A DNA stretch of 64,000 nt from Zetaproteobacteria bacterium CG06_land_8_20_14_3_00_59_53 (GCA_002779605.1 PEWE01000033.1:11686-75685), one strand, 5' to 3'. Shown: positions 30,304 through 44,599, counted from the stretch's first letter. Translations and numbers: made by a program. The notes: generated from the letters alone by a model not told the origin.

Positions 30304-30317
30304 GAATGACGCCTGCG

Positions 30318-30644: not shown

Positions 30645-31102
30645 GACTGCATCAGTCTCTTCACGCCCGCCGCATAGGCCGGCACATCGGGTTCCCCGCC
30701 CTTACGCTGAGCGAAATACACCGTCTCGGCCAGCACCTCGAGGATGGCATGCAGCGCGTCGTGCCGCTCCAAACCCTTGCGGGTCATCAGGAACTCAAGG
30801 CAGTTCGCCACCTCCGGCGGCTGGCGGATGGCCACCTGCTCCTCAAGCGCCAGATGCAGCGAGAGATGAAGATACGGATTCATGCCGTTATCAACTTCAA
30901 AATCCCGATCAAGGAAATCTTCCAGATCATTGAAATAATGGTGATATTCCGGATGTAGCGCGATCACCCTGGCGATGCGCACCTGCAACGCATCCAGCGG
31001 CAGATCGGCCTGCGCCTTCTGCCATGCATCCCAGAAAATCTGCCGGTGGGCACGCAGCTGTTCGCGATCCGGCCTGCCGGCTGTGGATGATTGGTCGTTC
31101 AA
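30641..31102 (-). CDS. DUF1841-family protein
   Basis: FWDAWQKA...HPEYHHYF...NPYLHLSLHLALEEQV pattern of DUF1841. TTG 31102 has GGGGAG 6 nt upstream. The track ORF extends to 31189. Confidence 0.7.
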   Translation of the reverse strand: MNDQSSTAGRPDREQLRAHRQIFWDAWQKAQADLPLDALQVRIARVIALHPEYHHYFNDLEDFLDRDFEVDNGMNPYLHLSLHLALEEQVAIRQPPEVANCLEFLMTRKGLERHDALHAILEVLAETVYFAQRKGGEPDVPAYAAGVKRLMQS

Positions 31103-31208
31103 ATCGGACTCCCCTGTGTGCTCGTTATCATCCGCAAAGGTTAATCGTGACGGCGGACAATTGCACTTGCCGCTTGCCCCCCGATGCACAACACAACAGC
31201 CTCAAGCC

Positions 31209-32240
31209 ATGTCGAATCCATCCAATCCGCAGAATCCCGAAACCGGCTCCTTCTATCGCCTCGGGCCGGAGCAGGTGTTGCAGGCCGTGGAAAGTCTGGG
31301 GTTCGCATGCAGCGGACGGCAGCTGGCGCTGAACTCCTATGAGAACCGCGTTTACCAGATCGGTCTGGAGGATGCTTCCCCGCTGGTCGCCAAGTTCTAT
31401 CGCCCGGCGCGCTGGAGCGATGCGGCGATCCTCGAAGAGCACGACTTCACGCTGGAGCTGCAGGAGCTGGATATCCCGGCTGTGCCGCCGATGTGTATCC
31501 ATGGCACCACCCTGCATCACTTCCATGACTACCGCTTCGCCCTTTACCCCTTCATGCCGGGACGCACCCCGGATCTGGAGAACGCTGCACACATCGAGCA
31601 GCTCGGACGTTTCTTCGGGCGTCTGCATGCCGCTGGCTCCATCCGCCGCTTTACACATCGCCCGGCTCTGGATGTGCACAGCTTCGGCGACGAATCCTAC
31701 GAATACCTGCTCGATGAAGGCCTGCTGCCACGCGATCTGCAGGACTCCTACCGGCATCTCGGCGAAGACCTGCTCGATGCCGTGGAAGACATCATGGATG
31801 CGGTGGATGCGCGCATGATCCGCCTGCAGGGCGATGCGCATCCCGGCAACATCCTGTGGCAGGAAGGCCCGCAGCGCTCGCTTGGCGGACCCCACATCCT
31901 GGATTTCGACGACGCACGCAACGGACCTGCCGTGCAGGACCTGTGGATGTTCCTTTCCGGCGAACCGGCACAGATGGAGGCCACGCTGGACACCCTGCTG
32001 ACCGGCTACACCGCGTTCTGCGACTTCGATGCCGCCGAACTGCGCCTCATCGAGCCGTTGCGCACCCTGCGCATCATGCACCATGCCGCATGGCTGGCGA
32101 AGCGACGCCACGACCCGGTGTTCCTCGATGCCTTCCCCTGGTTCAACACACAGCGCTACTGGGAAGAGCACCTGCTCACCCTGAAAGAACAGATGGCCGC
32201 CATGCACGAAGCACCGCTACATTGGCAGGCTGGGCACTAG
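31209..32240 (+). CDS. srkA: stress response serine/threonine kinase SrkA (YihE)
   Basis: Collinear with E. coli YihE (LNSYENRVYQ, KFYRP.RW, LHGD.H.GNILW, LDFDDARNGPAVQDLWM, EPLR..R). Confidence 0.9.
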   Translation: MSNPSNPQNPETGSFYRLGPEQVLQAVESLGFACSGRQLALNSYENRVYQIGLEDASPLVAKFYRPARWSDAAILEEHDFTLELQELDIPAVPPMCIHGTTLHHFHDYRFALYPFMPGRTPDLENAAHIEQLGRFFGRLHAAGSIRRFTHRPALDVHSFGDESYEYLLDEGLLPRDLQDSYRHLGEDLLDAVEDIMDAVDARMIRLQGDAHPGNILWQEGPQRSLGGPHILDFDDARNGPAVQDLWMFLSGEPAQMEATLDTLLTGYTAFCDFDAAELRLIEPLRTLRIMHHAAWLAKRRHDPVFLDAFPWFNTQRYWEEHLLTLKEQMAAMHEAPLHWQAGH

Positions 32241-32319: not shown

Positions 32320-32335
32320 TGTGATAAATGTCACA
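32320..32335. promoter_or_regulatory. perfect CRP/FNR-family type palindrome TGTGA-N6-TCACA
   Basis: TGTGATAAATGTCACA, centred about 109 nt upstream of the osmC-like ATG (32437) that heads the cyclase operon. Confidence 0.45.
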
Positions 32336-32436
32336 GACAGGTTGATTGTCTCCGAAAAACAGCCAGTGTTCGCATTAGGAATTTCCGGACATGGGGAACA
32401 TCCGGAAAGGGATTCAATTCACAGAAAGGGGAAGGT

Positions 32437-33000
32437 ATGTCCGAGCACATCAACGGGGTCAATCTCAACAACATCAGCGCGCTGATCGGTGCCATTCAGG
32501 AAAACAACGATCTGTCCAAGGTGCGTTTCCATGTGGAATCCAGCTGGGCGGGCGGCACGCAGACAAAGGTGCGCGTTAACGAGATGTATGCCAATGAGCA
32601 GAACATCGCACGCGAGGACCGGAATTTCGAGATGATCGTGGACGAGCCGGCACAGCTGGGCGGCGTGGACGAAGGTCCGAACCCGGTGGAAACCATCGCC
32701 GCCGGACTGTGCGGCTGTATCACCGCCGGCATGGCCACCAACGGCGCGCTGTTCGGCACCGAATTCAAGAAAATCGACATGGATTGCGATGTGTTCTTCG
32801 ACGTACGCGGCGTGTTCGGCTTGGACAAGACGGACACCATTCCGAACGGCGCGCTGCGCATCAACCTGAACATCCGCGCGAAGAGCGATGCCGACGAGGC
32901 TGAGGTGCGCAAGGTGAAGGAGATCATCGACAGGAAATCGCCGATGAAAAACACCCTGGAACTGCCACTAGAAATCACCACCAATCTGATCATCGAGTAA
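32437..33000 (+). CDS. OsmC-family protein (paralog 1)
   Basis: 187 aa with OsmC/Ohr-fold pattern (...GPNPVETIAAGLCGCITAG...). About 30% identical by eye to the ORF at 39938-40501. GGGGAAGG lies upstream of the ATG. Confidence 0.8.
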   Translation: MSEHINGVNLNNISALIGAIQENNDLSKVRFHVESSWAGGTQTKVRVNEMYANEQNIAREDRNFEMIVDEPAQLGGVDEGPNPVETIAAGLCGCITAGMATNGALFGTEFKKIDMDCDVFFDVRGVFGLDKTDTIPNGALRINLNIRAKSDADEAEVRKVKEIIDRKSPMKNTLELPLEITTNLIIE

Positions 33001-33065
33001 TCGTGCTCATTTCCGGGGCCATGCCGCCAGCGGCGGTCTCCGGGATTTGAATATGCGGGGAGAGC

Positions 33066-36000
33066 ATGGGTAATAGCATCGCAGCAGTCGGATTCAGCGA
33101 GCTTGAGGATTCGTTTCAGGCTGGCTTCGAGGCGGCCAGGCAGGCCTCTTCCTCGGTGGGCAACCACAGCGGCTGGAAGCTTGCCATGCTCATGTCCACC
33201 GCACGGCACGATCCGATGCGCCTGCAGGAAGGCGTGCAGAGCGTCATCGGCCGGGGCTGCGAACTGATCGGCGGCTATGCCGTCGGCATCATCACCAACG
33301 ACAAGCTGGCCTACGATGGCTTCCAGGTCGGCATCCTGCTGCTCTCGCCTTCAGCCGGAGCCGTCTTCGATATCTTCTCTGAAGGCGGGCTGGCCGACAA
33401 CGAAGCAAAGGTCGGCGAGAAACTCGCAAAAAGCATCGGCCGGCACAGCTTCGATACCGAAAACCCTTCACTGGTGCTGCTATACGACGCGGTGAACCGC
33501 ATGTCCGGGCGATTCAAGATGAACATGGCCACCTATGTGCTCGACGGGATGAAACAGAGCATGGATCGCTGGCCGCCGACGCTGGTCGGTGCCGGCATGG
33601 TCGGCGATATGCAATGCCGCGAAACCTTCCAGTGGTGCAACGGCCGGTTGCATCAGCAATCCGCCATCGCACTGGCCCTTTCCGGCTCGCTGCGCATCGA
33701 TGCCACCATCATGCACGGTTGCCGCCCGGCCAGCCGTTACCACCGCATCACCAAATCGGAAGGCAATGTGGTGCTGGAGATCGACGGCGTACCCGCACTG
33801 GACAAGATTTCGGAGTTGCTCGGACCGGATTCCGGCAAGACCTGGCGCGACTACAGCTTTTTCGTCACGCTCGGAGTGAATCGCGGCGATAAATTCGGCG
33901 AATTCGTTGAAAACAACTACGCCAACCGGCTATGCATGGGCGTGGACCTCGAGCGCAAAGGGCTGGTGATGTTCGAGCCGGATCTGGTGCCCGGCTCTGA
34001 AGTTCAGTTGATGCGCCGCGATGTGAACTTCGGCTATATCCATGAAAAGGTGAATGAGGTGCTGGCACGCGTCGGCGACCGCAAGCCGGTGTTCGCACTA
34101 TACATCGACTGCGCCGGCCGCGCCGCCTCCTACTCCGGCTTCGACGACGAGGATGCCGAGGAGGTGCAGCGCACGCTCGGCGATATCCCCCTGCTCGGCT
34201 TCTATACCGGCGTGGAGATCGGCCCGGTGGCCGGTGAACCGATGGCGCTGGACTGGACAGGCGTGCTGGCCATCGTCAGCGAAGGTGAACCCGGCTCACT
34301 GGCTTCCCCCGTTGCAACCGGGCAAGCATCCATCGAACTGCTGCCGCTGGCCGGCGATGCAGCGACCGGCGACATCAACCCGGACGAACTGGACGAACGT
34401 ATCCGCGTCTCCGAGGAACGCTTTCAGGCGCTGCAAAGCGAGAGCGATTACTACGCCGGCCTGTCCGACGAACTCGCCGGAAAGAATCTCAGGATGGATT
34501 CCCATCTGACCGCGCTGAACCACAGGCTGCACACCAAGAAACAGGGCCTCGCCATTCTCTCCCGACTGCACGACACATTCGGAACTCCAAGCCCCTTCGA
34601 AGAGCTGTGCCGCACCACGATGCAGGAGATCAACACCGAGCTGAACATGGACAAGACCATGGTCCTGCTTGAGCGCGACGGCGCATTCTGCCCCGCATAC
34701 TGGAGCGGCTATACCGAAGCCGAAGCCTTCAGCCTGGAGCACATCCATCTGCCGCTGCTAGCTGAGTGGATGAAGGTCAACTTCCTGCTAGGCAACCGCA
34801 ACACGCGAGGCGAGGCCGATGTGCAGCAGATCCGTAACATGACCCGCCTGCCCTACTTTGTCTGTGTGACCATTCGCGAAGCGGGAAAAATCACCGGCCT
34901 GATGCTTTCCGGGCGCATGAAAGAAGCGATGCCCTTCTATCCGCCACTGGTCGAAGAGGATGCAAGCACCCTGATCACCATCGCAGCCTTTCTCTCGGTC
35001 ACCGACCAGATGAACCGGCAGCGTCTGCAACTCGACCAGCTCAACGCCTTGAGCAGCAGCGGCGCGAAGCATTCGGTCACGGCTAATGTCGCGGCCACTG
35101 GTGCGACAAAAACGGCGGACGACAGCAGTGATGCTGCGGATGACCCCTATCAGGACATGAGTAGCGACGAATTACGCGACTGCCTGCGCAATATTGCTGC
35201 GGAACTGGCCGATCAGAAGCGCTCCAGCGAATACTACGGCTCGCTGGCCGATGAACTGGCCGGCCAGAATGTGAAAAAAGACTCCTCGCTGTCGATGCTC
35301 AACAACGAGCTGCGCATCAAGCGGCAGGGCTTCGCCATCCTTTCCGAGCTGCAGGACAGGCTGAACAGCCAGCAGACCATGGACAAGCTCTGCCCGCTGG
35401 TCATTCGCAGCATCAATATGACCCTGAACATGGACAAATCCATGGTGCTGTTCGAGAGCGAGGGCGTGCTGCGTCCTGCATTCTGGAGCGGTTTCTCCGA
35501 AATGGAGGTCTACGACATCGAGGACCTCGAAATGCCCATGGACGAGGACTGGATGGAAAACGGCCACCTGCTGGCCAACCGACGTACCGGCAAGGACGAG
35601 ATGGTGCTGCGCGCCAAGAACTTCATCCCCATCCCGTTCTTCATCGCCGTGCCCATCCGGCAGGACGATCGGACCATCGGCCTGCTGGTTTCCGGGCGGC
35701 TGAAAGAGGCCAAGCCCTTCTATCCGCCTCTGGCCAGGGAGGATGTGAACACATTCACGGCCATTTCGGGCTTCCTGTCCTCGACCGACCAGCTGAACCG
35801 GCAGCGCGACCACCTGCAGGAGATGAATCTGAATCTGGAGAAGAAGGTCAAGGAGCGCACCTCCGACCTGAGCGACGCGCTGGGCAAGCTGGAAGTGAAG
35901 AACCGCTTCATCAGGAAAACCTTCGGGCGTTACATGTCCGACGCGGTGGTGGAAAGCATCCTGGAAACCCCGGAAGGCCTGCATCTCGGAGGCCAGACGC

Positions 36001-36938
36001 TGCCGGTGACCATCCTGTTTTCCGATCTGCGCGGCTTCTCGGCTATTTCCGAATCCCTGCCGCCGGAACACGTCGTCGAACTGCTGAATATTTATCTTGA
36101 GGAGATGACACGTATTGTCTTCAAGTATTCCGGCACCATCAATGAGTTGATGGGTGATGGTATCCTGATCGTGTTCGGCGCGCCGAGCGCGAAACCGGAC
36201 GATGCCGACCGCGCCGTGGCCTGCGCCATGGAAATGCAGATGACCATGAACAAGGTCAACGCACGCATCACCGCCAAGGGTTTTCCGGAGCTGCACATGG
36301 GCATCGGTATCAACACCGGCCAGGTGGTCGCCGGCAACGTCGGCTCGGACATGCGCACCAAGTACGCCGTGGTGGGCAGCAATGTGAATCTTGCAGCGCG
36401 CGTGGAGTCGTTCACCGTCGGCGGCCAGGTGCTGGCCACACAATCCACACTCGATGCCCTGACCACCGAGATCAAGGTGGCCGGCGAGTTTTCCACCAAC
36501 TTCAAGGGCATCAAGGAACCGGTCGTCATGCACGACATCACTGGCATTAACGGAGATTTCAAGCTGCAACTGCCCGAGAAGGTCATCGAATACCGGAAAC
36601 TGGCGAACGGCTTGCCGATAAGGGTGGAACTGGTCGAGGGCAAGTCCTCGCAAGGCAGACAGATCACCGGTGCCATCCTCGCGCTGGCCGACCACTACGC
36701 CATGCTTGCCGTGGACGGCAAGCTGGAGAAACATGCCAACATGAAGATTCACCTCGATTCGCCGGGGCTTCCCGCGGACACCCATGTGTATGCCAAGGTC
36801 ATGAAGGACTGTGGCAAAGATTGCGGAAAGGGTTGCAGCGAGGTGAACTTCACCTATATGAGCCGGGAGACCCGCATCTTCCTGGACCAGATCAAAACCG
36901 TACAGGGTCAACAATGGGGAGACGATGCAATTACATGA
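33066..36938 (+). CDS. multidomain class III nucleotidyl cyclase: FIST_N/FIST_C sensor, two (coiled-coil + GAF-like) modules, cyclase catalytic domain, C-terminal PilZ-like beta domain
   Basis: FIST pattern in aa 1-400. Internal 261-aa duplication. Catalytic motifs FSDLRGF, ELMGDGILIVFG, GINTGQVVAGNVG, VGSNVNLAARVES. The PilZ-like call for the last ~120 aa is tentative. Confidence 0.85.
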   Translation: MGNSIAAVGFSELEDSFQAGFEAARQASSSVGNHSGWKLAMLMSTARHDPMRLQEGVQSVIGRGCELIGGYAVGIITNDKLAYDGFQVGILLLSPSAGAVFDIFSEGGLADNEAKVGEKLAKSIGRHSFDTENPSLVLLYDAVNRMSGRFKMNMATYVLDGMKQSMDRWPPTLVGAGMVGDMQCRETFQWCNGRLHQQSAIALALSGSLRIDATIMHGCRPASRYHRITKSEGNVVLEIDGVPALDKISELLGPDSGKTWRDYSFFVTLGVNRGDKFGEFVENNYANRLCMGVDLERKGLVMFEPDLVPGSEVQLMRRDVNFGYIHEKVNEVLARVGDRKPVFALYIDCAGRAASYSGFDDEDAEEVQRTLGDIPLLGFYTGVEIGPVAGEPMALDWTGVLAIVSEGEPGSLASPVATGQASIELLPLAGDAATGDINPDELDERIRVSEERFQALQSESDYYAGLSDELAGKNLRMDSHLTALNHRLHTKKQGLAILSRLHDTFGTPSPFEELCRTTMQEINTELNMDKTMVLLERDGAFCPAYWSGYTEAEAFSLEHIHLPLLAEWMKVNFLLGNRNTRGEADVQQIRNMTRLPYFVCVTIREAGKITGLMLSGRMKEAMPFYPPLVEEDASTLITIAAFLSVTDQMNRQRLQLDQLNALSSSGAKHSVTANVAATGATKTADDSSDAADDPYQDMSSDELRDCLRNIAAELADQKRSSEYYGSLADELAGQNVKKDSSLSMLNNELRIKRQGFAILSELQDRLNSQQTMDKLCPLVIRSINMTLNMDKSMVLFESEGVLRPAFWSGFSEMEVYDIEDLEMPMDEDWMENGHLLANRRTGKDEMVLRAKNFIPIPFFIAVPIRQDDRTIGLLVSGRLKEAKPFYPPLAREDVNTFTAISGFLSSTDQLNRQRDHLQEMNLNLEKKVKERTSDLSDALGKLEVKNRFIRKTFGRYMSDAVVESILETPEGLHLGGQTLPVTILFSDLRGFSAISESLPPEHVVELLNIYLEEMTRIVFKYSGTINELMGDGILIVFGAPSAKPDDADRAVACAMEMQMTMNKVNARITAKGFPELHMGIGINTGQVVAGNVGSDMRTKYAVVGSNVNLAARVESFTVGGQVLATQSTLDALTTEIKVAGEFSTNFKGIKEPVVMHDITGINGDFKLQLPEKVIEYRKLANGLPIRVELVEGKSSQGRQITGAILALADHYAMLAVDGKLEKHANMKIHLDSPGLPADTHVYAKVMKDCGKDCGKGCSEVNFTYMSRETRIFLDQIKTVQGQQWGDDAIT
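34383..35840 (+). repeat. tandem intragenic duplication (period 783 nt = 261 codons) encoding two coiled-coil + GAF-like modules
   Basis: DELDERIR...YYAGLSDELAGKN...LNMDKTMVLLE...FYPPL...TDQMNRQR aligns with DELRDCLR...YYGSLADELAGQN...LNMDKSMVLFE...FYPPL...TDQLNRQR. Two similar 69-codon antisense ORFs at 34451 and 35234 show the same 783-nt offset. Confidence 0.85.
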
Positions 36939-38103
36939 TCATGGGGAATCCATTACCAGCTACGATGAGCTGGTCAACGCACTGCGCACGGCGGTGCAAG
37001 TGGAACTGGGGGTGCTGCCGCCCTATTTCACGGCGATGTATTCGATCAGGGATCAGGGCAGCCCGGAGTTCCGGCTCATGCGCGGCGTGCTGATGGAGGA
37101 GATGCTGCATCTGGCGCTGAACTGCAACCTGCTCAACGCTATCGGTTCGGCACCTTTGATCCAGCCGCCCTACACGCCGAATTACCCCCTGCCGCTGCCG
37201 CACTATCATCAGGGCTTCGAGGTGCATCTTTCGCCGCTCACCCGGGAGTTTGCACGCGACACACTGATGGTCATCGAGCGCCCGTCATGGACGGTGCACG
37301 ATTCTCATGACGCAGCACCCGCCCAGGCCTCGGGCTGGGAAACACTGGGACAGTTCTACAAGGGCATCATCGACGGCTTCATCACCGTGCACAAACAGAA
37401 ACCCGACCTGTTCGCCCATGCGGCGCGGCAATACGGCACCAACGGCATCTACTCCAACGGCGGCGGTTATCTGAAGGCCGTGGGCAGCCTGCGCGACGCC
37501 ATCATCGCCATCGAGGAAAACCTCATCCAGACCCAGGGCACCAAGGGGAAAGAGTACCAGCCATGCGGTCCGGACGGTGCGATGGAACTGTCGCACTTCG
37601 ACAACTTCCGCGAGATCGCCGACGGCAACATACCCATCGGCGAGGTGTACCCGATGCTGCCGGACATCAAGGCCCATCAACTCTCCGGCCCGCTGAAAGC
37701 ACTATCCGGCCTGTTCGACGACTGCTGGCGCCTGTTCCTCGATGCACTGAACGAGACCTTCAGCAACCCGTTCAACTACAGCATCTACTTCACCCAATCC
37801 ATGTGGCTGATGAAAAAGGTGTTTCCGGAACTCGCCGTCCTTTTGATGTCCTCACCCATCGACCCGAACCAGCCGCAACTTGGCAACGCCGGCCCGGCCT
37901 TCTACTGCGATCCAAATGCGAAAACGCGCAGCATCAGCGAGGTGCTGGGCGATGCGGTGCTGGTGATGTCCATGACCGACCGGCCGGAATGGAAGAAGGC
38001 CGTGGGCTCCACCATCGAGACTCTGGAATACATGATGGTCGAACGCCGCCGCATCGAGGAGCGCAGCGACTACAGCCATGCCGCGGAGTCGTCCGCGGCA
38101 TAA
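36925..38103 (+). CDS. stand-alone ferritin-like domain protein (VioB/RebD-type 'Ferritin-like' family)
   Basis: VQVELGVLPPYFTAMYSI...MEEMLHLALNCNLLNAIGSAP matches the signature I recall from the C-terminal domain of VioB (LELSVMLQYLYAAYSI...EEMIHYLVVNNLLMALG). Its start overlaps the cyclase stop by 14 nt. Confidence 0.65.
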   Translation: MQLHDHGESITSYDELVNALRTAVQVELGVLPPYFTAMYSIRDQGSPEFRLMRGVLMEEMLHLALNCNLLNAIGSAPLIQPPYTPNYPLPLPHYHQGFEVHLSPLTREFARDTLMVIERPSWTVHDSHDAAPAQASGWETLGQFYKGIIDGFITVHKQKPDLFAHAARQYGTNGIYSNGGGYLKAVGSLRDAIIAIEENLIQTQGTKGKEYQPCGPDGAMELSHFDNFREIADGNIPIGEVYPMLPDIKAHQLSGPLKALSGLFDDCWRLFLDALNETFSNPFNYSIYFTQSMWLMKKVFPELAVLLMSSPIDPNQPQLGNAGPAFYCDPNAKTRSISEVLGDAVLVMSMTDRPEWKKAVGSTIETLEYMMVERRRIEERSDYSHAAESSAA

Positions 38104-38130
38104 GCAACCGACTCTGCCTCACTGAAATGC

Positions 38131-38161
38131 ACAGCGCGCCGGGTGTCCCCCGGCGCGCTGT
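38131..38161. terminator. GC-rich hairpin between convergent genes
   Basis: ACAGCGCGCCGGG-tgtcc-CCCGGCGCGCTGT (13-bp stem) followed by TTCGT. The U-tract is weak. Confidence 0.55.
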
Positions 38162-38181
38162 TTCGTGGGACTTCCCCGACC

Positions 38182-39661
38182 TTACATCAGATCGAGCAGG
38201 TAACGCGGCGTCGGGTGACGCCTGGCCACCTTCAGCTTGTCCGCCACGTCATCTGTGAGATAGATGTGCGGATTCTCATGCGCATCGTCAAGCACATGCT
38301 TGGCCACGTGGGTACCCGAGATCCAGCATTCCTCGTGCAAGCCGGCCCCTTGGGTGTAGCCACCGGTGAAATACACATTGTCGATGCCTTTCATCATCAC
38401 CGGCGCGATATTGTCCTGTGCCTTGGTTGCCTCGACGTTCAGGCGGTAGTGATAGAATTTGAACATCGTGCAGTCCCCGAAAGTTTTGTTGTTCAGACGG
38501 CAGATATCGGGGACCGGATTCAGCGGATTCAGGGTCAGGAAGAACTGCGGTGTCATACCCCGGTATGTCGGATTCTTCGGATCGTTCTGGTGGCGATTCG
38601 CCCAGTAGGTGATGTTGTAGCGTTCCGGACTGTCACGGTCGGCAAACACGTTGATGTTGTAGGTGGCCCACAGGTTCGGGTCCGGCGGCATATTCGCCGT
38701 GGATGTATGCGCCACCACCTCGTCGGTTTCCATGCTCATGGCGTTTTTCAGCTGTTTCACCATCGCGGGAACCTGCTCCTGGCGATAGTAGATCTCCTCC
38801 AGCGTGCGTGTCTGCACGGCCACGATCACCTTGTCGAAATCCTCGGTCTGCGGCTTGCTGCCCGCAGCGGCATCCACCGGCAGCGTGTACACACGCACCT
38901 TGCCGCTATCCAGCAACTCGATCTGCGCCTTCACCCCACGGAAGATCACCTGTGGCAGCCCATGCTGCAGATAGGCGGAAAGCTTGCGGATCCAGTTCAC
39001 CGTACCTCCCACCCAGTACTGACGCTCGGGGGGCAGGACCGTGCCGTAACCTTCCTGCAGGTAATAGTAGTGCGCCACCTGACGCGCCGGCATCTCGCTG
39101 GGCCGGATCATGCCGGCGAAGTACATGCCGTTGATGCGCGGGTACAGGTTCAGATAGACGTAGTCATCGGGAAAGCCGGCCCACTTCACGAACTGGTCCA
39201 TGGTCCACCATTGCATGTCCTTGTGCTGATCCATGTCTTCCAGCTTCAGGTAACGCTTGATCGCATCGCCGAACATGGCGGCACCCTTGAGCACCCCCTC
39301 GGGGGCATTGTGCCCCATCTGCGGCCGGTCACTGGAGGGCATGGTGTAGCCCACGACGGTTTCCGGATCGAATGCCCCGCCCGGGCCGATGTTGGAATAA
39401 CCTGTGGAATCCTCCAGCGGGGCATATTCAACACCCAGCCTGGTGAACACTTCCATCAGGTTCGTATAACTGTTCTTGTTGAAATCGTTGACACCGAGAT
39501 CCACCCAGCGGTTCACCCCGCCGACGTTCAACGGGATCGTTCGGGCGTTACCGCCGACGTTGTGCACCCGTTCGAACACCTTGAACTCATGGTCTTGTTC
39601 TTTCAGATGGTAGGCAGCAGCCAATCCGGACCCCCCCCCCCCCGATAATCGCTACTTTCAT
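38182..39661 (-). CDS. FAD-dependent amine-oxidase-like oxidoreductase (COG2907-like), out of frame at a poly-G tract in the sequence as given
   Basis: ATG 39661 gives MKVAII + G13. With 12 G it reads MKVAIIGGGGSGLAAAYHLKEQDHEFKVFER..GG (FAD beta-alpha-beta), continuous with the 480-codon ORF 38182-39624. C-terminal FTGGYTQGAGLHEECWISG. Confidence 0.75.
39631..39643 (-). repeat. 13-nt homopolymeric G tract (C13 on the plus strand) inside the GxGxxG codons
   Basis: Counted directly: positions 39631-39643 are all C on the plus strand. Confidence 0.95.
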
Positions 39662-39846
39662 GGTTTCCCCCATCGTGATATCCGGTTCATCGTCAACCGC
39701 CATCATGCACGATACATTGAGGTATTATCTCTTTGGAATCGGCATGTTAATGGCACCATATGCATAATCTTGGCAACTTCAAGCCTGCAGAGCTGCCGAC
39801 CTTTTCAGGGCACGTACTTCGCCGGGATTCAATCCAGGCGCGGCGA

Positions 39847-39878
39847 TTCATTGAACAGATCATTTCATTGAACAGATC
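39847..39878 (+). repeat. tandem direct repeat 2 x TTCATTGAACAGATC (17-nt period), each copy with a GATC and a TTCAnTGAA mini-palindrome
   Basis: Copies at 39847-39861 and 39864-39878. They lie 60-90 nt upstream of the osmC paralog 2 start, in the divergent intergenic region shared with the poly-G oxidase gene. Confidence 0.9.
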
Positions 39879-39937
39879 GCTTGAAAGAAACCGGATATTG
39901 CATATGGTTGCTGCTTCAGATGCATCAGGAGGGTGAG

Positions 39938-40501
39938 ATGAATATGGAAACAGGTAATTCGATTGATAACGGTGTCAACGTCGATGCTTTGGTCGGAGCC
40001 CGGTCGGCACTGACTGATGCACCCGAAGCGGCCAGATTCACATGGCGCGCAACCTGCGAATGGAAGAACGGTACGCATACCTATTCAACGGTGGAGAAGT
40101 TTTTCGGCCTTGGCGGAGAACAGCAGCATAAAACCAGGTTCGGATTCGATGCGGACCACCCCGAAATATTTGCATCCGAAGACAACGGGGCCACACCCGT
40201 TGAATACGTGCTGGTCGGACTGGCGAGTTGTTTGACCGGCGGCATCGCAACCATCGCCCAGTACAGAAATATCCAGCTGCGTTCCGTCATCGCAACCGTT
40301 GAAGGCGATATGGACCTGCAGGGCATTCTGGGAATCGACAGTGATGTTCGTAACGGATACGACGGTATCCGTGTCAGCTATAAAATCGATGCCGATGCAA
40401 GCGATGATGATATCAGGGCGCTGGTGGCCCAGTCGCAAAAGCGTTCGGCTGTTTACGACATGCTCACAAGTCCGACCAACGTCACGGTTGTCGTAGAATA
40501 G
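39938..40501 (+). CDS. OsmC-family protein (paralog 2)
   Basis: AGGAGGG upstream of ATG 39938/39944. NGVNVDALVGA...ATPVEYVLVGLASCLTGG... parallels paralog 1. The track start (TTG 39881) is rejected. Confidence 0.8.
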   Translation: MNMETGNSIDNGVNVDALVGARSALTDAPEAARFTWRATCEWKNGTHTYSTVEKFFGLGGEQQHKTRFGFDADHPEIFASEDNGATPVEYVLVGLASCLTGGIATIAQYRNIQLRSVIATVEGDMDLQGILGIDSDVRNGYDGIRVSYKIDADASDDDIRALVAQSQKRSAVYDMLTSPTNVTVVVE

Positions 40502-40509
40502 GCTGAAGC

Positions 40510-41745
40510 ATGCAGACAATCACCACCGTCGTCATAGGCGCCGGTCATGCCGGGCTGGCCATGAGCAAGTATCTTGGTGATCGCTCGATTGAGCATGTCG
40601 TTCTTGAGCGTGGTGAAGTGGCCAATACTTGGAAAACGGAGCGCTGGGACTCCCTGCGGCTGTTAACACCCAACTGGCAATCCCGTCTGCCGGGCTATGC
40701 CTATGAGGGGGATGAGCCGGATGGTTACCGCGACATGCCAGAGACCATTGCCCTGATCGAGCGCTATGCGGATCTCGTTGCAGCACCTGTGCAGACACAG
40801 ACCCGTGTGACCTGTGTTGAGAAAAACGCCACAGGGTACCGGGTTTCCACCACCCGGGGCGAGTGGCAATGCCGCAGCGTGGTGATGGCGAGCGGCGCCT
40901 TCAACAAGGCATCGGTCCCGGCATTCGCTGATCAGCTCCCGGCGTCGATCGCGATGCTCACCCCGACAACGTACCGCAATCCCGGACAGCTGGAACAAGG
41001 GGGCGTGCTGGTGGTCGGCGCTGCGGCAACGGGACTTCAACTGGCCCGGGAGATCCACCTGTCAGGCCGTCCTGTCACCCTGTCCATTGGTGAGCACACC
41101 CGGGTCCCGCGCAGGTACAGAGGCCGTGATATCCAATGGTGGATGGATAAAACCGGGCGCCATGACGAGTCTTTCGAACAGGTCGACGATATTGTCAGGG
41201 CGAGAAAAGTACCGTCCTTTCAACTGATCGGCTCGGCCGAACATGAAATCATCGACCTCAATGCGCTGCGCGACATCGGCATCAGGCAGATCGGACGTTT
41301 TGTCGGCATGCAGAACGGAAAGGGTCTGTTCGCCGGCTCGCTGCATAATCTATGTGATCTGGCGGATCTCAAAATGAACAGGTTACTCGACGCCATCGAT
41401 GCGTGGATCACAGACAATGGCCTGGATCAGGCGGTTGAACCGCCCCGTCGTTTTCCCCCGACTCAGGTGGACCCCTCTCCCCCGCTTTGCATCGATTTTC
41501 ATACAAGCGACATCAGAACGGTTCTTTGGGCAACGGGTTTCAGGCCCGATTATTCATGGTTGAAGGTTCCCGTTTTCGACCATAAAGGACAGATCCGCCA
41601 TAACGGCGGGGTGATCGAAGATGCCCCCGGACTGTATGTGATGGGCCTGCCGTTCCTGCGCCGCCGCAAATCGACGCTTCTGGACGGGGCCGGAGACGAT
41701 GCGCGCGAGCTCAGCGGGCATCTGTTATCTTATCTGCAGGGTTAA
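40510..41745 (+). CDS. class B flavin-containing monooxygenase / CzcO-like NAD(P)/FAD-dependent oxidoreductase
   Basis: Two dinucleotide motifs (VVIGAGHAGLA; VLVVGAAATGLQLA). Starts 8 nt after osmC paralog 2. Confidence 0.75.
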   Translation: MQTITTVVIGAGHAGLAMSKYLGDRSIEHVVLERGEVANTWKTERWDSLRLLTPNWQSRLPGYAYEGDEPDGYRDMPETIALIERYADLVAAPVQTQTRVTCVEKNATGYRVSTTRGEWQCRSVVMASGAFNKASVPAFADQLPASIAMLTPTTYRNPGQLEQGGVLVVGAAATGLQLAREIHLSGRPVTLSIGEHTRVPRRYRGRDIQWWMDKTGRHDESFEQVDDIVRARKVPSFQLIGSAEHEIIDLNALRDIGIRQIGRFVGMQNGKGLFAGSLHNLCDLADLKMNRLLDAIDAWITDNGLDQAVEPPRRFPPTQVDPSPPLCIDFHTSDIRTVLWATGFRPDYSWLKVPVFDHKGQIRHNGGVIEDAPGLYVMGLPFLRRRKSTLLDGAGDDARELSGHLLSYLQG

Positions 41746-41815: not shown

Positions 41816-42631
41816 CTAGAGCGGCATAAAATCCCCGATGCTTGTGGTTCCATCCCTGACGCACAGCAGCGACGATTCGGGTATCTCCGCCCAGTCTTCG
41901 GACATGAAATCCAGCGGTTCGGATACCACGATCACCGCACCTTCGGGCAGCGGTTCGTAGCTGTCATGCAGCTCGCGCAGGGAATGCGGGTGTTTGCTGT
42001 GATACAGGGTGCGTGATTGCCGGTGGCTGGAGTAGCGCACCGCCCAGATACTCGTTCCATCCGTGGCACACGCCGAGAAACAGATCGGCAATTCGATACC
42101 CGCGGCCTGACGGGCGCGCTCCACATGGCCGATGGTCCGGGCCAGTGCAGCGGGAGCGTCTTCGCGCAGCCCGAAGCTCAGGGCGAGAAAAAACAGGGTT
42201 TCGGAATCCGACGAGCCGGCGATTGACGGAAACAATTCGGGGGCGACGTCGAACTGCAACTGCCGCTTCAGTTTAGCGAATTCGGGAATCGATCCGTTGT
42301 GCTGGAACAGCCAGTTCTCGAAACAGAACGGGTGACAGTTGGTGCTCTGCACCGAGGTGCCGGTAGCGGCACGCACATGCGACAAAAACAGCCCGGAGTT
42401 GATATGCGCAGCAAGCGAACGGATGTTTACATCGTTCCATGCCGGCTGAGTGCTATGATAAACACCCGGATTTTTCTGCGCGCCGTACCAGCCGATTCCG
42501 AACCCATCGCCGTTGGTGGTTTCGATGTTTTGCAGCGCGTGCCGGCTCTGATCGATCATCGAGTGTTCCGGATTGGTGAGCAGATCGCTCATCGCAATGG
42601 GTGCCCCACTATAAGCCAGCCAGCGGCACAT
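41816..42631 (-). CDS. class II (Ntn) glutamine amidotransferase-fold hydrolase, EgtC-like
   Basis: Start MCRWLAYSG... gives the obligatory Cys2 nucleophile; GDGFGIGWY. ATG 42631 lies 1 nt after the upstream stop. The track start 42718 is rejected. Confidence 0.75.
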   Translation of the reverse strand: MCRWLAYSGAPIAMSDLLTNPEHSMIDQSRHALQNIETTNGDGFGIGWYGAQKNPGVYHSTQPAWNDVNIRSLAAHINSGLFLSHVRAATGTSVQSTNCHPFCFENWLFQHNGSIPEFAKLKRQLQFDVAPELFPSIAGSSDSETLFFLALSFGLREDAPAALARTIGHVERARQAAGIELPICFSACATDGTSIWAVRYSSHRQSRTLYHSKHPHSLRELHDSYEPLPEGAVIVVSEPLDFMSEDWAEIPESSLLCVRDGTTSIGDFMPL

Positions 42632-42632
42632 A

Positions 42633-43289
42633 TCAGGCAGTGCCGGACCTTTCTTTGGCCGCCACAGTAAGGAAGCCGCGACTCTTTTGCGAGGTCGGGT
42701 CGATCTCGACCAGGGCATCGTGCAGTAGCTCGGCCTTCACCCAGCACGGCGGCAGCTTGAACCGCGCCACATCCATCACCAGAAAGCGATCCTCGGCGCG
42801 GTGATAGGCTGCCACCGGGGAAAAGTGCCCGGCGCCCTCTTCGTTGAACACGCGCCGGTTAAAATCCAGGATGATGCGCTTGCCGTCATGTTGCAGACTT
42901 TCGATCAGGATTTCGCGACAACGGTTCAGGTCGTAATCCGCGCCGAAGTATGTTTCCACTTCCACATCAAGCGCATCCAGAATATCGGCCAGCTGCTCCA
43001 GCGTGTTGCCGCCCATTTCGACGTCCAGCGGACGGCGGCGCTGCAACACGTTGTGCGTGAAAATATTTTCCTGCGTGAACATGGTATACGGATAAATCTG
43101 CGGGTCTTCCGGCGCATCGATGGCCAATGAGTTAAGCACCATCACGCTGCTGGCGATGCCGCAGTAGGTTAGAAACAGCTGGGTCTCGAAATAACGCCCG
43201 ACAGACCAGAAATGGTTTTTAACCTCCGCCGAGTGGAAAAGCTCCGAGCCTTCCGCTGTGTCCAGAAACACAAGGTCGCCTGATTTCAT
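42633..43289 (-). CDS. phytochelatin synthase-like papain-fold enzyme (bacterial half-PCS)
   Basis: Catalytic triad contexts YCGIASSVMVLNSL (Cys), GHFSPVAAYH (His) and VMDVARFKLPPCWV (Asp) match PCS signatures (YCGLASLSMVLNAL, GHFSPIGGY, DVARFKYPPHWV). Confidence 0.8.
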   Translation of the reverse strand: MKSGDLVFLDTAEGSELFHSAEVKNHFWSVGRYFETQLFLTYCGIASSVMVLNSLAIDAPEDPQIYPYTMFTQENIFTHNVLQRRRPLDVEMGGNTLEQLADILDALDVEVETYFGADYDLNRCREILIESLQHDGKRIILDFNRRVFNEEGAGHFSPVAAYHRAEDRFLVMDVARFKLPPCWVKAELLHDALVEIDPTSQKSRGFLTVAAKERSGTA

Positions 43290-43337
43290 GCAATTCCCCC
43301 TTGTCGATATCGTATTGAACCGCCAGCCATGCCCGTT

Positions 43338-43601: not shown

Positions 43602-43782
43602 GGACACCCCTCCCATCTGAATTGGACACGAAAACTGCACAATTGCCCTGTTCGTCGCAAGCCGAGGGGCAAGCCCGGTTGCCACCATTCATCGCACTGC
43701 ACCTTAAGCATCGGTACAGCAAAGCTTGCATGCAGAAATACAATGCCGGAAGCGGTTTTATATCAGTACGGTCAACGCCTGT

Positions 43783-44598: not shown

Positions 44599-44599
44599 C

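What the first reader, a model, noticed from the sequence alone, without database searches (positions are those of the whole stretch)
32320..41745. Uncharacterised cyclic-nucleotide / oxidative-chemistry island bracketed by two OsmC paralogs
One tight plus-strand operon runs OsmC-like, then the 1290-aa FIST-(CC+GAF-like)x2-cyclase, then a VioB/RebD-type ferritin-like protein whose start overlaps the cyclase stop by 14 nt. It converges on a COG2907-type FAD amine-oxidase-like gene carrying a poly-G tract. A second OsmC paralog and a class B flavin monooxygenase follow, 8 nt apart. I know of no described system with this combination. The content points to a second messenger being coupled to production or handling of a reactive oxidised metabolite. 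It includes a small-ligand sensor (FIST), a nucleotide cyclase, two thiol-peroxidase-fold proteins, two flavoenzymes and a metallo ferritin-like protein.
Basis: partly seen in the sequence, partly recalled or inferred. Interest (0 to 1): 0.72.

Follow-up and report, generated by a model that had tools for sequence, protein, structure and literature searches.

The report
FIST–OsmC–flavoprotein sensor driving cGMP
This stretch of an iron-oxidising Zetaproteobacterium encodes an apparently undescribed sensing module that recurs in at least eight bacterial lineages with interchangeable outputs, here a predicted cGMP-forming cyclase, which could explain how bacteria living at oxygen boundaries turn an oxidative chemical cue into a second messenger.

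Summary

Gene-neighbourhood searches show a conserved core of a FIST sensor plus an atypical one-cysteine OsmC-like protein in 8 of 8 lineages. An MAO-fold flavoprotein oxidase joins them in 7 of 8. Gene order is shuffled, and the FIST output varies:
- a class III cyclase;
- a PP2C phosphatase with SiaB/SiaC-like partners and GGDEF or HD-GYP proteins;
- a GAF-GGDEF protein.

The PF12902 ferritin-like gene (3 lineages) and the OsmC2-FMO pair (2 lineages) are accessories.

The cyclase here is Cya2-like and carries Glu/Ala specificity residues, so I predict cGMP.

In this window the oxidase gene is thrown out of frame by a 13-G tract. Other assemblies of the same population carry in-frame (G10TG) or +1 (G11TG) alleles. 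That makes it a candidate phase-variable locus.

Function is inferred, not shown. My best guess is enzyme-coupled redox or chemical sensing. I found no paper describing this combination. It is not a mobile island, a violacein-type pathway or a Pycsar system.

The parts
32437..33000 (+). OsmC1: atypical OsmC-like protein (187 aa). It has a ~45-aa N-terminal extension and a CGC motif (C92, C94). The canonical second Cys is replaced by Ser168.
   Evidence: Pfam PF02566 at 54.8 bits. Alignment of 8 homologues. A profile of these matches PDB 2OPL 'hypothetical protein' over its full length, E 1.9e-45. Adjacent to the FIST gene in window, L003, L006, L172 and L176; separated from it by one gene in L171 (a second OsmC) and L175 (the GAF-cyclase). 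L170 has only the OsmC2 type.
33066..36938 (+). Sensor-cyclase, 1290 aa: FIST_N (33180-33788), FIST_C (33795-34226), GAF-like 1 (~34413-35045), GAF 2 (~35163-35945), class III cyclase (36003-36533).
   Evidence: Pfam. Internal GAF duplication from tblastn. Cyclase domain matches Cya2 guanylyl cyclase 2W01 at E 2.7e-64. Residues D987, D1031, N1108, R1112, E1027 and A1101.
36925..38103 (+). PF12902 ferritin-like protein, 392 aa. Its start overlaps the cyclase stop by 14 nt. Conserved residues are E27, E58, E59, H62, E118 and H224.
   Evidence: Pfam 136.7 bits. Alignment. AF2 model pLDDT 88.6. The only structural relative is 3HL1, CC_0557, of unknown function. Tail-to-tail with the oxidase gene in 3 lineages.
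38182..39661 (-). MAO/PPOX-fold flavoprotein oxidase-like gene. It is interrupted by a +1 frameshift in this window. The start is ATG 39661 and the intact 480-codon body runs 39624-38182.
   Evidence: Pfam Amino_oxidase and NAD_binding_8. Sequence. AF2 model pLDDT 89.9. Best fold match is LkcE (6F7L), E 3.5e-19. Orthologues are 36-64% identical.
39631..39643 (-). 13-nt poly-G tract (C13 on the + strand) inside the GxGxxG-coding codons. Candidate phase-variation switch, OFF state here.
   Evidence: Alleles are G10TG in frame (L173; proteins P0107 and P0109), G11TG at +1 (L001) and G13 at +1 (window and L002). Orthologues use mixed Gly codons.
39847..39880 (+). 17-nt tandem direct repeat, TTCATTGAACAGATC(A/G)(T/C) x2, in the divergent intergenic region upstream of OsmC2. 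Possible operator.
   Evidence: the repeat finder. No function tested.
39938..40501 (+). OsmC2: second OsmC-like paralogue (187 aa from ATG 39938; the ORF opens at TTG 39881). It has a single Cys and forms a pair with the FMO.
   Evidence: Pfam 62.3 bits. 82% identical to the OsmC that precedes the FMO in L170. Alignment.
40510..41745 (+). Flavin-dependent monooxygenase-like protein (411 aa), 8 nt after OsmC2.
   Evidence: Pfam Pyr_redox_3 at 78.9 bits. NCBIfam TIGR04046 MSMEG_0569 family at 344.8 bits, below the cutoff of 498. 74% identical orthologue in the same position in L170.

Best explanation
The region encodes a conserved cytoplasmic sensing module.

Shown:
- A FIST-domain sensor is always encoded with a one-cysteine OsmC-like protein of the PDB 2OPL type, and almost always with an MAO-fold flavoprotein oxidase.
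- The sensor passes its signal through one or two GAF modules to an interchangeable output.
- In this Zetaproteobacterium the output is fused. It is a Cya2-like class III cyclase with all catalytic residues and a Glu/Ala specificity pair.

Predicted from those residues: the product is cGMP.

Inferred:
- The flavoprotein uses O2 to oxidise a small amine-type substrate, giving an electrophilic product (imine or aldehyde) and H2O2.
- The FIST domain has conserved cysteines C219 and C349. It reads either that product or the oxidation state of the OsmC-like cysteine, and so sets cyclase activity.
- The ferritin-like dimetal protein and the OsmC2-FMO pair are lineage-specific add-ons that further process or quench the oxidase products.
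- The poly-G tract lets the population switch the flavoprotein, and therefore the input, on and off.
For: 1. Conservation across eight diverged lineages with different gene orders:
- window and L001/L002: OsmC / FIST-GAF2-cyclase / ferritin / oxidase(-) / OsmC / FMO;
- Gallionellaceae: OsmC / FIST-PP2C / ferritin / oxidase(-) / HD-GYP, plus SiaC and DUF6272;
- a JGI contig: ferritin / oxidase(-) / OsmC / FIST / GAF-PP2C / DUF6272 / SiaC / GGDEF;
- a second Zetaproteobacterium: oxidase / OsmC / FMO / FIST-cyclase;
- CG1_02_64_396: oxidase / FIST-cyclase / OsmC / OsmC;
- Rhodocyclaceae: oxidase / OsmC / FIST / GAF-GGDEF;
- Magnetococcus: OsmC / FIST / GAF-PP2C / oxidase / DUF6272 / SiaC;
- Oligoflexus: OsmC / GAF-cyclase / FIST.
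Identities are 36-82%.

2. FIST and the GAF-output protein are separate genes in four lineages and fused in four, a Rosetta-stone link. Members of this FIST subfamily are fused to GGDEF, cyclase, PP2C or histidine-kinase outputs.

3. The cyclase matches Cya2 (2W01) at E 2.7e-64. It has Glu1027 and Ala1101 where adenylyl cyclases have Lys and Asp. This pair is conserved in three lineages. Guanylyl cyclases carry Glu plus C/S/T/H/A/G at these positions (PMC4215837).

4. The OsmC-likes keep one invariant Cys and have Ser at the resolving position. That fits a sensor or relay role better than a turnover peroxidase.

5. PF12902 genes elsewhere sit next to flavin oxidases. In 23 of 37 non-redundant loci with long flanks they are adjacent to a GMC oxidoreductase. 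In fungi they lie near LodA-type amino-acid oxidases (PMC4417212).

6. There is a precedent for FIST chemistry. Cys326 in the FIST_C domain of human FBXO22 reversibly binds aldehydes made from primary amines by amine oxidases (10.1101/2023.11.01.564830).

7. The named lineages include Zetaproteobacteria, Gallionellaceae and Magnetococcus, which from general knowledge are microaerophiles of oxic-anoxic interfaces.
Against: - No substrate, ligand or activity is known for any of the four protein families. The nearest structures (2OPL, 3HL1) are structural-genomics entries without a function.
- Oligoflexus has OsmC and FIST without an oxidase within 9 kb, so the oxidase is not obligatory.
- The oxidase is out of frame in this window and in most assemblies, so the module apparently runs without it much of the time.
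- The characterised bacterial FIST proteins (NosP) sense NO through haem, not an aldehyde or a thiol (PMC12570481).
- I could not align FBXO22 Cys326 to C349.
- The flavoprotein fold also covers desaturases and protoporphyrinogen oxidase, so 'amine oxidase' is not established.
- No cGMP receptor was found in the window.
Confidence: 0.45

Rival explanations
1. A NosP-type gas sensor with co-regulated defence enzymes. The FIST domain binds haem and senses NO (or O2), as NosP does. The OsmC-likes, oxidase, ferritin-like protein and FMO are nitrosative or oxidative-stress enzymes that are simply co-expressed with the sensor and take no part in sensing.
For: In NosP, FIST is the haem-binding NO-sensing domain, and NosP systems control c-di-GMP enzymes (PMC12570481). 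The outputs here are also second-messenger enzymes. The conserved His217-Gly-Cys219 motif could ligate haem.
Against: The OsmC-linked FIST proteins form a tight group (47-82% identity), and a NosP-like FIST next to a histidine kinase in the same Oligoflexus genome is only 20% identical to the window's FIST domain. The NCBIfam scan returned no NosP match; I do not know that the library holds such a model. No NosK/NosR-type partners are present. Detoxification enzymes would not be expected to keep such tight linkage through this much operon reshuffling and output swapping. The OsmC-likes lack the resolving Cys of real peroxidases.
Confidence: 0.25
2. A small biosynthetic or catabolic pathway for an oxidised metabolite, analogous to VioA/VioB or RebO/RebD. 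It would comprise oxidase + PF12902 protein + FMO + OsmC, with the FIST-cyclase as its pathway-specific regulator.
For: Oxidase and PF12902 genes are paired tail-to-tail in three lineages. PF12902 pairs with flavin oxidases broadly and often has large regulators nearby. The best fold match of the oxidase is LkcE, a natural-product tailoring enzyme.
Against: The PF12902 and FMO genes are missing from most lineages that keep the OsmC-FIST-oxidase core. There are no core biosynthetic genes, transporters or further tailoring genes. The PF12902 protein has 392 aa, whereas from memory VioB has about 1000 aa. VioA is not among the top 50 fold matches. Outputs such as PP2C-SiaB/SiaC-GGDEF are global lifestyle regulators rather than pathway regulators.
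Confidence: 0.12
3. A cofactor or ligand-maturation arrangement, like haem oxygenase with bacteriophytochrome. The PPOX/phytoene-desaturase-fold flavoprotein, with or without the ferritin-like protein, makes or modifies the prosthetic group that the FIST or GAF domains bind.
For: Protoporphyrinogen oxidase and phytoene desaturase are among the fold matches. GAF domains bind tetrapyrroles or cNMPs in other sensors (general knowledge). NosP-type FIST binds haem.
Against: This does not explain the universal OsmC-like partner. A cofactor-making enzyme would be an odd target for an OFF-biased phase switch. PPOX and PDS score about 7 orders of magnitude worse than LkcE.
Confidence: 0.08
4. A chance neighbourhood or a phage-defence (Pycsar-like) cyclase system.
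For: The cyclase domain hits PADLOC PycC models at up to 77.9 bits.
Against: The same domain scores 232 bits against a Cya2-derived chain (6FHT; native Cya2, 2W01, scores 219.6). None of the other five proteins hits PADLOC. I saw no candidate effector gene: no cNMP-binding domain by tblastn and no strongly hydrophobic segment in the nine proteins checked. Conservation across eight lineages with signalling outputs excludes chance.
Confidence: 0.02

Closest known systems
NosP / NahK(NosK) / NosR nitric-oxide signalling (FIST-domain haemoprotein controlling c-di-GMP)
   Same: The sensor is a FIST_N + FIST_C domain pair, cytoplasmic, and controls second-messenger metabolism.
   Different: There is no histidine kinase or NosR partner. 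The NCBIfam scan gave no NosP match (I do not know that the library holds such a model), and a NosP-like paralogue in the same Oligoflexus genome is only 20% identical to the window's FIST domain. The module is always accompanied by an OsmC-like protein and usually by a flavoprotein oxidase. Signal passes through GAF modules to a cyclase, PP2C or GGDEF output. Haem binding is untested.
Cya2 guanylyl cyclase of Synechocystis PCC 6803 (PDB 2W01)
   Same: The catalytic domain aligns over residues 16-211 of the 220-aa query at E 2.7e-64. It has the same metal, transition-state and Glu specificity residues.
   Different: The second specificity residue is Ala, not Gly. The N-terminal regulatory part is FIST-GAF-GAF. 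cGMP production is predicted, not measured.
SiaABCD partner-switch system of Pseudomonas aeruginosa (PP2C phosphatase, kinase, SiaC, diguanylate cyclase)
   Same: In the Gallionellaceae, Magnetococcus and JGI-contig versions, the same FIST/OsmC/oxidase input is wired to a PP2C phosphatase with DUF6272 and SiaC genes. A GGDEF gene follows in the JGI contig only.
   Different: The window has no Sia genes and its output is a fused cyclase. From general knowledge, SiaA of Pseudomonas has no FIST input.
OsmC/Ohr organic hydroperoxide reductases
   Same: PF02566 fold with an invariant cysteine at the peroxidatic position.
   Different: The resolving Cys is replaced by an invariant Ser. There is an extra ~45-residue N-terminal segment. 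The closest structure is the uncharacterised 2OPL, not OsmC or Ohr.
VioA/VioB and RebO/RebD (flavin L-Trp oxidase + imine-dimer synthase carrying a PF12902 domain)
   Same: An amine-oxidase-fold flavoprotein is paired with a PF12902 protein. The VioB/RebD link to PF12902 is from memory of InterPro and was not tested here.
   Different: The PF12902 protein is a stand-alone protein of 392 aa. The oxidase resembles LkcE/MAO rather than VioA. There are no vioCDE/rebCP genes. The pair is dispensable in most lineages.
UfaD (RSP1091), the COG2907-type FAD fatty-acyl desaturase of furan fatty-acid synthesis
   Same: Homologues at 29-37% identity are named 'predicted NAD/FAD-binding protein' by JGI, which from memory is the COG2907 name. 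UfaD is O2-dependent and belongs to an oxidative-stress regulon (PMC7380195).
   Different: No UfaO, UfaM or cfa-like neighbour appears in any of the eight loci. I did not compare it directly with the UfaD sequence.
Human FBXO22 FIST_C domain engaging aldehydes through Cys326
   Same: A FIST domain whose cysteine reads an aldehyde produced by an amine oxidase. The bacterial FIST proteins have an invariant Cys in FIST_C (C349) and an oxidase next door.
   Different: FBXO22 is a eukaryotic E3-ligase adaptor and its ligands are synthetic. I could not establish positional equivalence of the cysteines.

Membership tests
Class III nucleotidyl cyclase, guanylyl-cyclase type (Cya2-like) | PF00211 catalytic domain above the Pfam cutoff | tested here: met
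   98.6 bits against a cutoff of 21.9. 2W01 at E 2.7e-64.
Class III nucleotidyl cyclase, guanylyl-cyclase type (Cya2-like) | Two metal-binding Asp residues and the transition-state Asn/Arg pair | tested here: met
   D987 (FSDLRGF), D1031 (MGDG), N1108 and R1112 (VNLAAR).
Class III nucleotidyl cyclase, guanylyl-cyclase type (Cya2-like) | Glu in place of the adenine-specifying Lys, and a non-Asp residue (C/S/T/H/A/G) at the second position | tested here: met
   E1027 and A1101, conserved in L170 and L171. Rule taken from PMC4215837. The Oligoflexus and Magnetococcus cyclases have K/T.
Class III nucleotidyl cyclase, guanylyl-cyclase type (Cya2-like) | Measured GTP-to-cGMP activity | not testable with these tools
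   Needs an enzyme assay.
NosP (FIST haem NO sensor) | FIST_N + FIST_C domains | tested here: met
   92.7 and 62.3 bits.
NosP (FIST haem NO sensor) | Operon with a NosK/NahK histidine kinase and a NosR response regulator | tested here: not met
   None in any of the eight OsmC-linked clusters. Oligoflexus carries a separate FIST + histidine-kinase pair whose FIST is only 20% identical to the window's.
NosP (FIST haem NO sensor) | Haem binding and an NO response | not testable with these tools
   Needs spectroscopy of purified protein.
OsmC/Ohr thiol peroxidase | PF02566 fold with a peroxidatic Cys | tested here: met
   (invariant C94 of OsmC1).
OsmC/Ohr thiol peroxidase | Second (resolving) Cys in the C-terminal CP(V/Y)S-type motif (motif recalled from memory) | tested here: not met
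   Invariant Ser (KSP) in all 8 homologues and in 2OPL. The OsmC1 clade has a nearby CGC motif that might substitute.
COG2907 / UfaD-type flavoprotein | Amino_oxidase + NAD_binding_8 domains, and homologues carrying the COG2907 name | tested here: met
   JGI names homologues 'predicted NAD/FAD-binding protein'.
COG2907 / UfaD-type flavoprotein | Intact N-terminal GxGxxG FAD-binding motif | tested here: not met
   Out of frame in this window because of the 13-G tract. Intact in allele L173/P0107.
COG2907 / UfaD-type flavoprotein | Neighbouring UfaO/cfa-like genes (furan fatty-acid operon) | tested here: not met
   Absent from all eight loci.
VioA/VioB-type bisindole module | PF12902 domain | tested here: met
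   136.7 bits.
VioA/VioB-type bisindole module | A large multidomain VioB/RebD-size protein, a VioA-like oxidase and downstream vioCDE/rebCP genes | tested here: not met
   The protein has 392 aa. The oxidase resembles LkcE/MAO most closely. No such neighbours.
Class B flavoprotein monooxygenase / MSMEG_0569 family | Pyr_redox_3 domain and a score above the TIGR04046 cutoff | tested here: inconclusive
   Pyr_redox_3 at 78.9 bits is met. TIGR04046 at 344.8 bits is below the cutoff of 498.
Pycsar anti-phage system | A cyclase plus an adjacent effector (the Pycsar effector definition is from memory) | tested here: not met
   Only generic PycC similarity. I saw no candidate effector gene: no cNMP-binding domain by tblastn and no strongly hydrophobic segment in the nine proteins checked.
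Phase-variable contingency locus (slipped-strand homopolymer) | A long homopolymer in the 5' coding region whose length differs between closely related sequences and switches the reading frame | tested here: met
   G10TG in frame versus G11TG and G13 at +1, among assemblies of one population. The tract is unique in the window and absent from orthologues.
Phase-variable contingency locus (slipped-strand homopolymer) | Demonstrated switching within a clonal lineage, with sequencing error excluded | not testable with these tools
   Needs read-level data or cultures.

The most novel reading that the evidence does not exclude
The module is an enzyme-coupled covalent chemosensor.
- The flavoprotein oxidises a specific environmental or metabolic amine with O2 to an aldehyde plus H2O2.
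- A conserved FIST cysteine captures the aldehyde as a reversible hemithioacetal, as Cys326 of human FBXO22 does.
- The one-cysteine OsmC-like protein captures or relays the H2O2.
- The combined signal sets cGMP here, or c-di-GMP elsewhere.

This would give the FIST domain a natural ligand logic shared by bacteria and eukaryotes. It would also reveal a cGMP pathway, gated by phase variation of the oxidase gene, that positions iron-oxidising microaerophiles in O2 gradients.
Probability: 0.12. Interest if true: 0.85.

Novelty: new variant of a known kind. Interest (0 to 1): 0.62.

Why it matters
FIST is one of the commonest bacterial sensor domains without an agreed ligand, apart from the haem/NO story for NosP.

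A tightly conserved trio of FIST, a one-cysteine OsmC-like protein and a flavoprotein oxidase offers a concrete, testable handle on what a large FIST subfamily senses. That subfamily has about 140 representative clusters.

The predicted cGMP output would add a rare case of bacterial cGMP signalling, and in Zetaproteobacteria, whose signalling is, to my knowledge, little studied.

The same input is wired to cGMP, to a SiaABC-like partner switch or to GGDEF proteins. This makes it a natural experiment in how signalling modules are rewired.

A homopolymer switch in the oxidase gene of an uncultured environmental iron-oxidiser would extend contingency-locus behaviour beyond pathogens.

The broader pairing of PF12902 proteins with flavin oxidases gives a first functional lead for that orphan family.

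Tried and rejected
- Ferritin-like subfamily. Scans of GTDB genomes and JGI metagenomes with its motifs found only one more close relative (Gallionellaceae) and two short contigs at 39% identity. The other ~150 loci are ~30% relatives with a different context: GMC oxidoreductase, sugar-isomerase-like genes and STAND regulators. The ferritin gene was therefore a poor seed. The oxidase and OsmC seeds gave the real picture.
- Acidimicrobiia homologues. P0009 and P0026 share no neighbourhood with the window.
- Sequence searches of PDB. The oxidase and the FIST region gave nothing, including with a FIST profile, and the GAF-linker region gave only insignificant hits (best E 0.016). I therefore could not place FBXO22 Cys326 on the bacterial FIST.
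- Flavoprotein/cNMP-binding/4Fe-4S fusion next to the L171 cluster. It looked like a Rosetta-stone link to the window's FMO, but the two are only 22% identical over 224 residues. I kept it only as a hint.
- Cyanobacterial oxidase homologue at 35% identity. It has no OsmC/FIST partner, which marks the edge of the association.
- Regulatory signals. Rfam found no riboswitch in the region. The promoter and terminator scan was no better than shuffled sequence.
- PADLOC. It gave only generic cyclase similarity.
- cGMP receptor. No cNMP-binding protein was detected in the window.
- Rejected labels. 'Mobile genomic island' was rejected because composition is flat and I saw no mobility genes in the flanks I annotated. 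'Violacein-like pathway' was rejected on the grounds given in the membership test.

Full report
WHAT IS THERE

The window comes from a Zetaproteobacteria MAG from the Crystal Geyser series; the ferritin-like protein is 100% identical to NCBI 'Zetaproteobacteria bacterium CG06_land_8_20_14_3_00_59_5...'.

- OsmC-like, 32437-33000 (+).
- A 1290-aa FIST_N/FIST_C/GAF/Guanylate_cyc protein, 33066-36938 (+).
- A PF12902 ferritin-like protein, 36925-38103 (+), overlapping the previous gene by 14 nt.
- A convergent Amino_oxidase/NAD_binding_8 gene, 38182-39624 (-).
- A second OsmC-like gene, ending at 40501.
- A Pyr_redox_3 monooxygenase, 40510-41745, 8 nt after OsmC2.

NCBIfam adds that the monooxygenase is related to the MSMEG_0569 and ArsO families but scores below both cutoffs. 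It also shows that both OsmC-likes are closest to an 'OsmC-related (seleno)protein' model, again below cutoff.

GC content is flat across the region and I saw no mobility genes in the flanks I annotated. This is a chromosomal gene cluster, not a mobile island.

THE POLY-G TRACT

The oxidase gene starts at ATG 39661 (MKVAII-GGGG...). A run of 13 G (39631-39643) puts that start out of frame with the 480-codon body. Twelve G would give IIGGGGSGLAAAY, a proper GxGxxG motif.

This is the only long homopolymer in the 64 kb; the next longest G/C run is 6. Orthologues encode the same glycines with mixed codons.

Other assemblies of the same population differ at the tract:
- L173 has G10-TG, in frame, giving MKVAIIGGGVSGL. 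This is protein P0107, found on 7 contigs. NCBI entry OIQ01734 reads the same way.
- L001 has G11-TG, +1. Products of 483 aa were called on about 65 contigs.
- The window and L002 have G13, +1. Products of 480 aa were called on about 9 contigs.
- L002 also carries a 99-nt tandem duplication just 3' of the tract.

The tract length therefore differs between assemblies and toggles the frame, with OFF states in the majority. That is the signature of a slipped-strand contingency locus. Homopolymer miscalls in the assemblies cannot be excluded without the reads.

IS THE CLUSTER A UNIT?

Seeding with the ferritin-like protein found only two more lineages:
- Gallionellaceae: OsmC / FIST-FIST_C-PP2C / ferritin-like / oxidase(-) / HD-GYP, with SiaC and DUF6272 upstream.
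- A JGI contig: ferritin-like / oxidase(-) / OsmC / FIST / GAF-PP2C / DUF6272 / SiaC / 86 aa / GGDEF.

Seeding with the oxidase added three:
- A second Zetaproteobacterium: oxidase / OsmC / FMO / FIST-GAF-cyclase.
- 'Proteobacteria CG1_02_64_396': oxidase / FIST-cyclase / OsmC / OsmC.
- A Rhodocyclaceae MAG: oxidase / OsmC / FIST / GAF-GGDEF.

Seeding with OsmC1 added two:
- Magnetococcus sp. YQC-3: OsmC / FIST / GAF-PP2C / oxidase / DUF6272 / SiaC.
- The cultured Oligoflexus tunisiensis: OsmC / GAF-cyclase / FIST.

Identities to the window proteins are 36-82% and the gene orders differ, so these are independent retentions.

The invariant pair is OsmC-like + FIST (8 of 8 lineages). The oxidase is present in 7 of 8, the ferritin-like protein in 3 and the FMO in 2. 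When the FMO is present it always directly follows an OsmC2-type paralogue.

A cyanobacterial oxidase homologue at 35% identity has no such partners. That marks the edge of the association.

ARCHITECTURE OF THE SENSOR

The FIST region of the eight lineages is 47-82% identical to the window's. It shares the motifs MHGC(R/K/Q)PA, NR(L/M)C and YI(D/N)CAGRA. A NosP-like FIST next to a histidine kinase in the same Oligoflexus genome is only 20% identical to the window's FIST domain.

Residues ~450-660 and ~700-960 of the window protein both match the single GAF of the GAF-PP2C, GAF-GGDEF and GAF-cyclase proteins in other lineages.

FIST and the GAF-output protein are separate genes in four lineages and fused in four.

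Across the 1.84-billion-protein library, 140 representative clusters match the FIST region at E<=1e-30, out of 2838 FIST hits. The fused members I scanned carry GGDEF, class III cyclase, PP2C or hybrid histidine-kinase outputs.

This is therefore a sensor module with swappable outputs.

THE OUTPUT HERE

The cyclase domain matches the Synechocystis guanylyl cyclase Cya2 (2W01) at E 2.7e-64.
- It has the metal-binding aspartates D987 and D1031.
- It has the transition-state pair N1108/R1112.
- At the two base-specifying positions it has E1027 and A1101.

Adenylyl cyclases have Lys and Asp at those positions. Guanylyl cyclases have Glu plus one of C/S/T/H/A/G, and Cya2 has E-G (PMC4215837).

The E/A pair is conserved in the three FIST-cyclase lineages. 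The Oligoflexus and Magnetococcus cyclases are K/T. I therefore predict cGMP for this window.

No cNMP-binding protein was detected in the window. In L171, a Pyr_redox_3 + 2x cNMP_binding + 4Fe-4S protein lies divergently next to the cluster. It is only 22% identical to the window's FMO, so I treat it as a hint only.

THE PARTNER PROTEINS

OsmC-likes:
- All eight homologues keep one cysteine (C94 of OsmC1, in GLCGC). They have Ser where OsmC/Ohr have the second cysteine.
- They carry a ~45-residue N-terminal extension with invariant NG and Trp.
- A profile of them matches PDB 2OPL ('hypothetical protein') end to end at E 1.9e-45. True OsmC/Ohr structures score only about 1e-7.
- They are thus a distinct one-cysteine branch of unknown function.

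Oxidase:
- The AlphaFold model (pLDDT 89.9) is closest to LkcE, the lankacidin amide oxidase/cyclase (E 3.5e-19, TM 0.66-0.75).
- Next come monoamine and putrescine oxidases, protoporphyrinogen oxidase and phytoene desaturase, at about 1e-12.
- JGI names its homologues 'predicted NAD/FAD-binding protein', which I recall as the COG2907 label. One characterised member, by my recollection of its COG assignment, is the O2-dependent acyl desaturase UfaD (PMC7380195). None of its operon partners is present here.

Ferritin-like protein:
- The model has pLDDT 88.6. It matches only 3HL1, the uncharacterised CC_0557.
- E27, E58, E59, H62, E118 and H224 are conserved, which suggests a dimetal site.
- Among ~30% relatives from GTDB genomes and metagenomes, 23 of 37 non-redundant loci with long flanks have a ~640-aa GMC oxidoreductase immediately adjacent. 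Thirteen have a STAND AAA_16 regulator nearby, and 8 have a cyclase domain.
- In fungi, PF12902 genes lie beside LodA-type amino-acid oxidases (PMC4417212).
- PF12902 therefore looks like a general partner of H2O2-producing oxidases.

HOW IT PROBABLY WORKS

Shown: the OsmC-like protein, FIST and (usually) the oxidase are inherited together and feed an interchangeable second-messenger output. The output here is a catalytically complete cyclase of guanylyl-cyclase type.

Inferred:
- The flavoprotein oxidises a small substrate with O2, giving an electrophile and H2O2.
- FIST reads that product, or the oxidation state of the single OsmC cysteine.
- The ferritin-like protein and OsmC2-FMO process or quench by-products.

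Two precedents make this plausible. The first is thiol-peroxidase relays such as Orp1-Yap1 (general knowledge). The second is the finding that Cys326 in the FIST_C domain of human FBXO22 reversibly binds aldehydes generated from primary amines by amine oxidases (10.1101/2023.11.01.564830).

The named carriers include Zetaproteobacteria, Gallionellaceae and Magnetococcus, which are gradient microaerophiles (general knowledge). For them an O2- or peroxide-dependent signal that controls lifestyle messengers makes sense.

Points against:
- Oligoflexus lacks the oxidase.
- The oxidase is OFF in most assemblies.
- NosP-type FIST proteins sense NO through haem (PMC12570481).
- No activity is known for any partner family.

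RIVALS

- A NosP-like haem gas sensor with merely co-expressed stress enzymes (0.25).
- A small VioA/VioB-like oxidative pathway regulated by the cyclase (0.12).
- A cofactor-maturation arrangement (0.08).
- Chance neighbourhood or Pycsar defence (0.02). PADLOC gave only generic PycC similarity and I saw no candidate effector gene.

NOVELTY

Full-text searches found no paper that combines FIST with OsmC and an amine oxidase. The parts belong to known superfamilies and the logic (sensor to GAF to output) is familiar. I therefore rate it a new variant of a known kind: an undescribed accessory-enzyme input for FIST signalling, with a predicted bacterial cGMP output and a candidate phase switch.

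Noticed in passing
window 39631-39643, compared with L001 12700-12740, L002 12788-12836 and L173 1560-1580: The homopolymer in the oxidase gene differs between assemblies of one population: G10TG in frame, G11TG at +1 and G13 at +1. OFF alleles predominate. It is either a phase-variable switch or a recurrent assembly error.
   Followed up: partly
L002 12622-12819 (minus strand): A 99-nt perfect tandem duplication lies immediately 3' of the poly-G tract in the JGI assembly only. It lengthens the called product to 498 aa. It may be an assembly artefact at the homopolymer or a real strain variant.
   Followed up: no
window 39847-39880: A 17-nt tandem direct repeat, TTCATTGAACAGATC.. x2, each copy containing the palindrome TTCA-T-TGAA. 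It lies in the divergent region between the oxidase and OsmC2 genes and may be a regulator binding site.
   Followed up: no
window 41816-45496 (minus strand): A minus-strand run of an EgtC-like class-II amidotransferase, a phytochelatin-synthase-like protein, an 87-aa ORF, a CN_hydrolase and DUF4438. This suggests gamma-glutamyl-thiol metabolism. A GATase_4 gene also sits divergently beside the oxidase homologue in the cyanobacterium Trichocoleus (L174).
   Followed up: partly
window 30975-32240 (+): A YihE/SrkA-type stress-response kinase (NCBIfam PRK11768, 440 bits) lies directly upstream of OsmC1 on the same strand. It is not conserved in the other lineages.
   Followed up: no
L171 7116-9560 (minus strand): An 814-aa fusion of an FMO-like Pyr_redox_3 flavoprotein, two cNMP-binding domains and a 4Fe-4S dicluster. 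It is divergent from the oxidase/FIST-cyclase/OsmC operon and may be a cNMP-regulated redox enzyme or receptor.
   Followed up: partly
L011-L169 (distant PF12902 loci), e.g. L025 8067-11149 and L111 1468-7931: Stand-alone PF12902 ferritin-like genes usually follow a ~640-aa GMC oxidoreductase. They are often near xylose-isomerase-like TIM-barrel genes and large AAA_16/TPR/LuxR regulators, some with a cyclase domain. This looks like an uncharacterised conserved oxidase + ferritin-like pair.
   Followed up: partly
window 16653-16861 (minus strand): A cobalamin riboswitch (Rfam RF00174, 114 bits) lies upstream of a 643-aa ORF (14592-16523), which is followed by a long run of minus-strand ORFs that I did not annotate.
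   Followed up: no
window 24350-30435 (minus strand): A UvrD-helicase/PDDEXK pair (1093 aa and about 900 aa) resembling AddAB-type helicase-nuclease genes, followed by DUF1841.
   Followed up: no
L175 2767-5690: Oligoflexus tunisiensis carries, 3 kb from the OsmC/cyclase/FIST cluster, a second and very divergent FIST protein next to an Hpt/HATPase kinase (NosP/NahK-like). The two FIST systems therefore coexist in one genome.
   Followed up: partly
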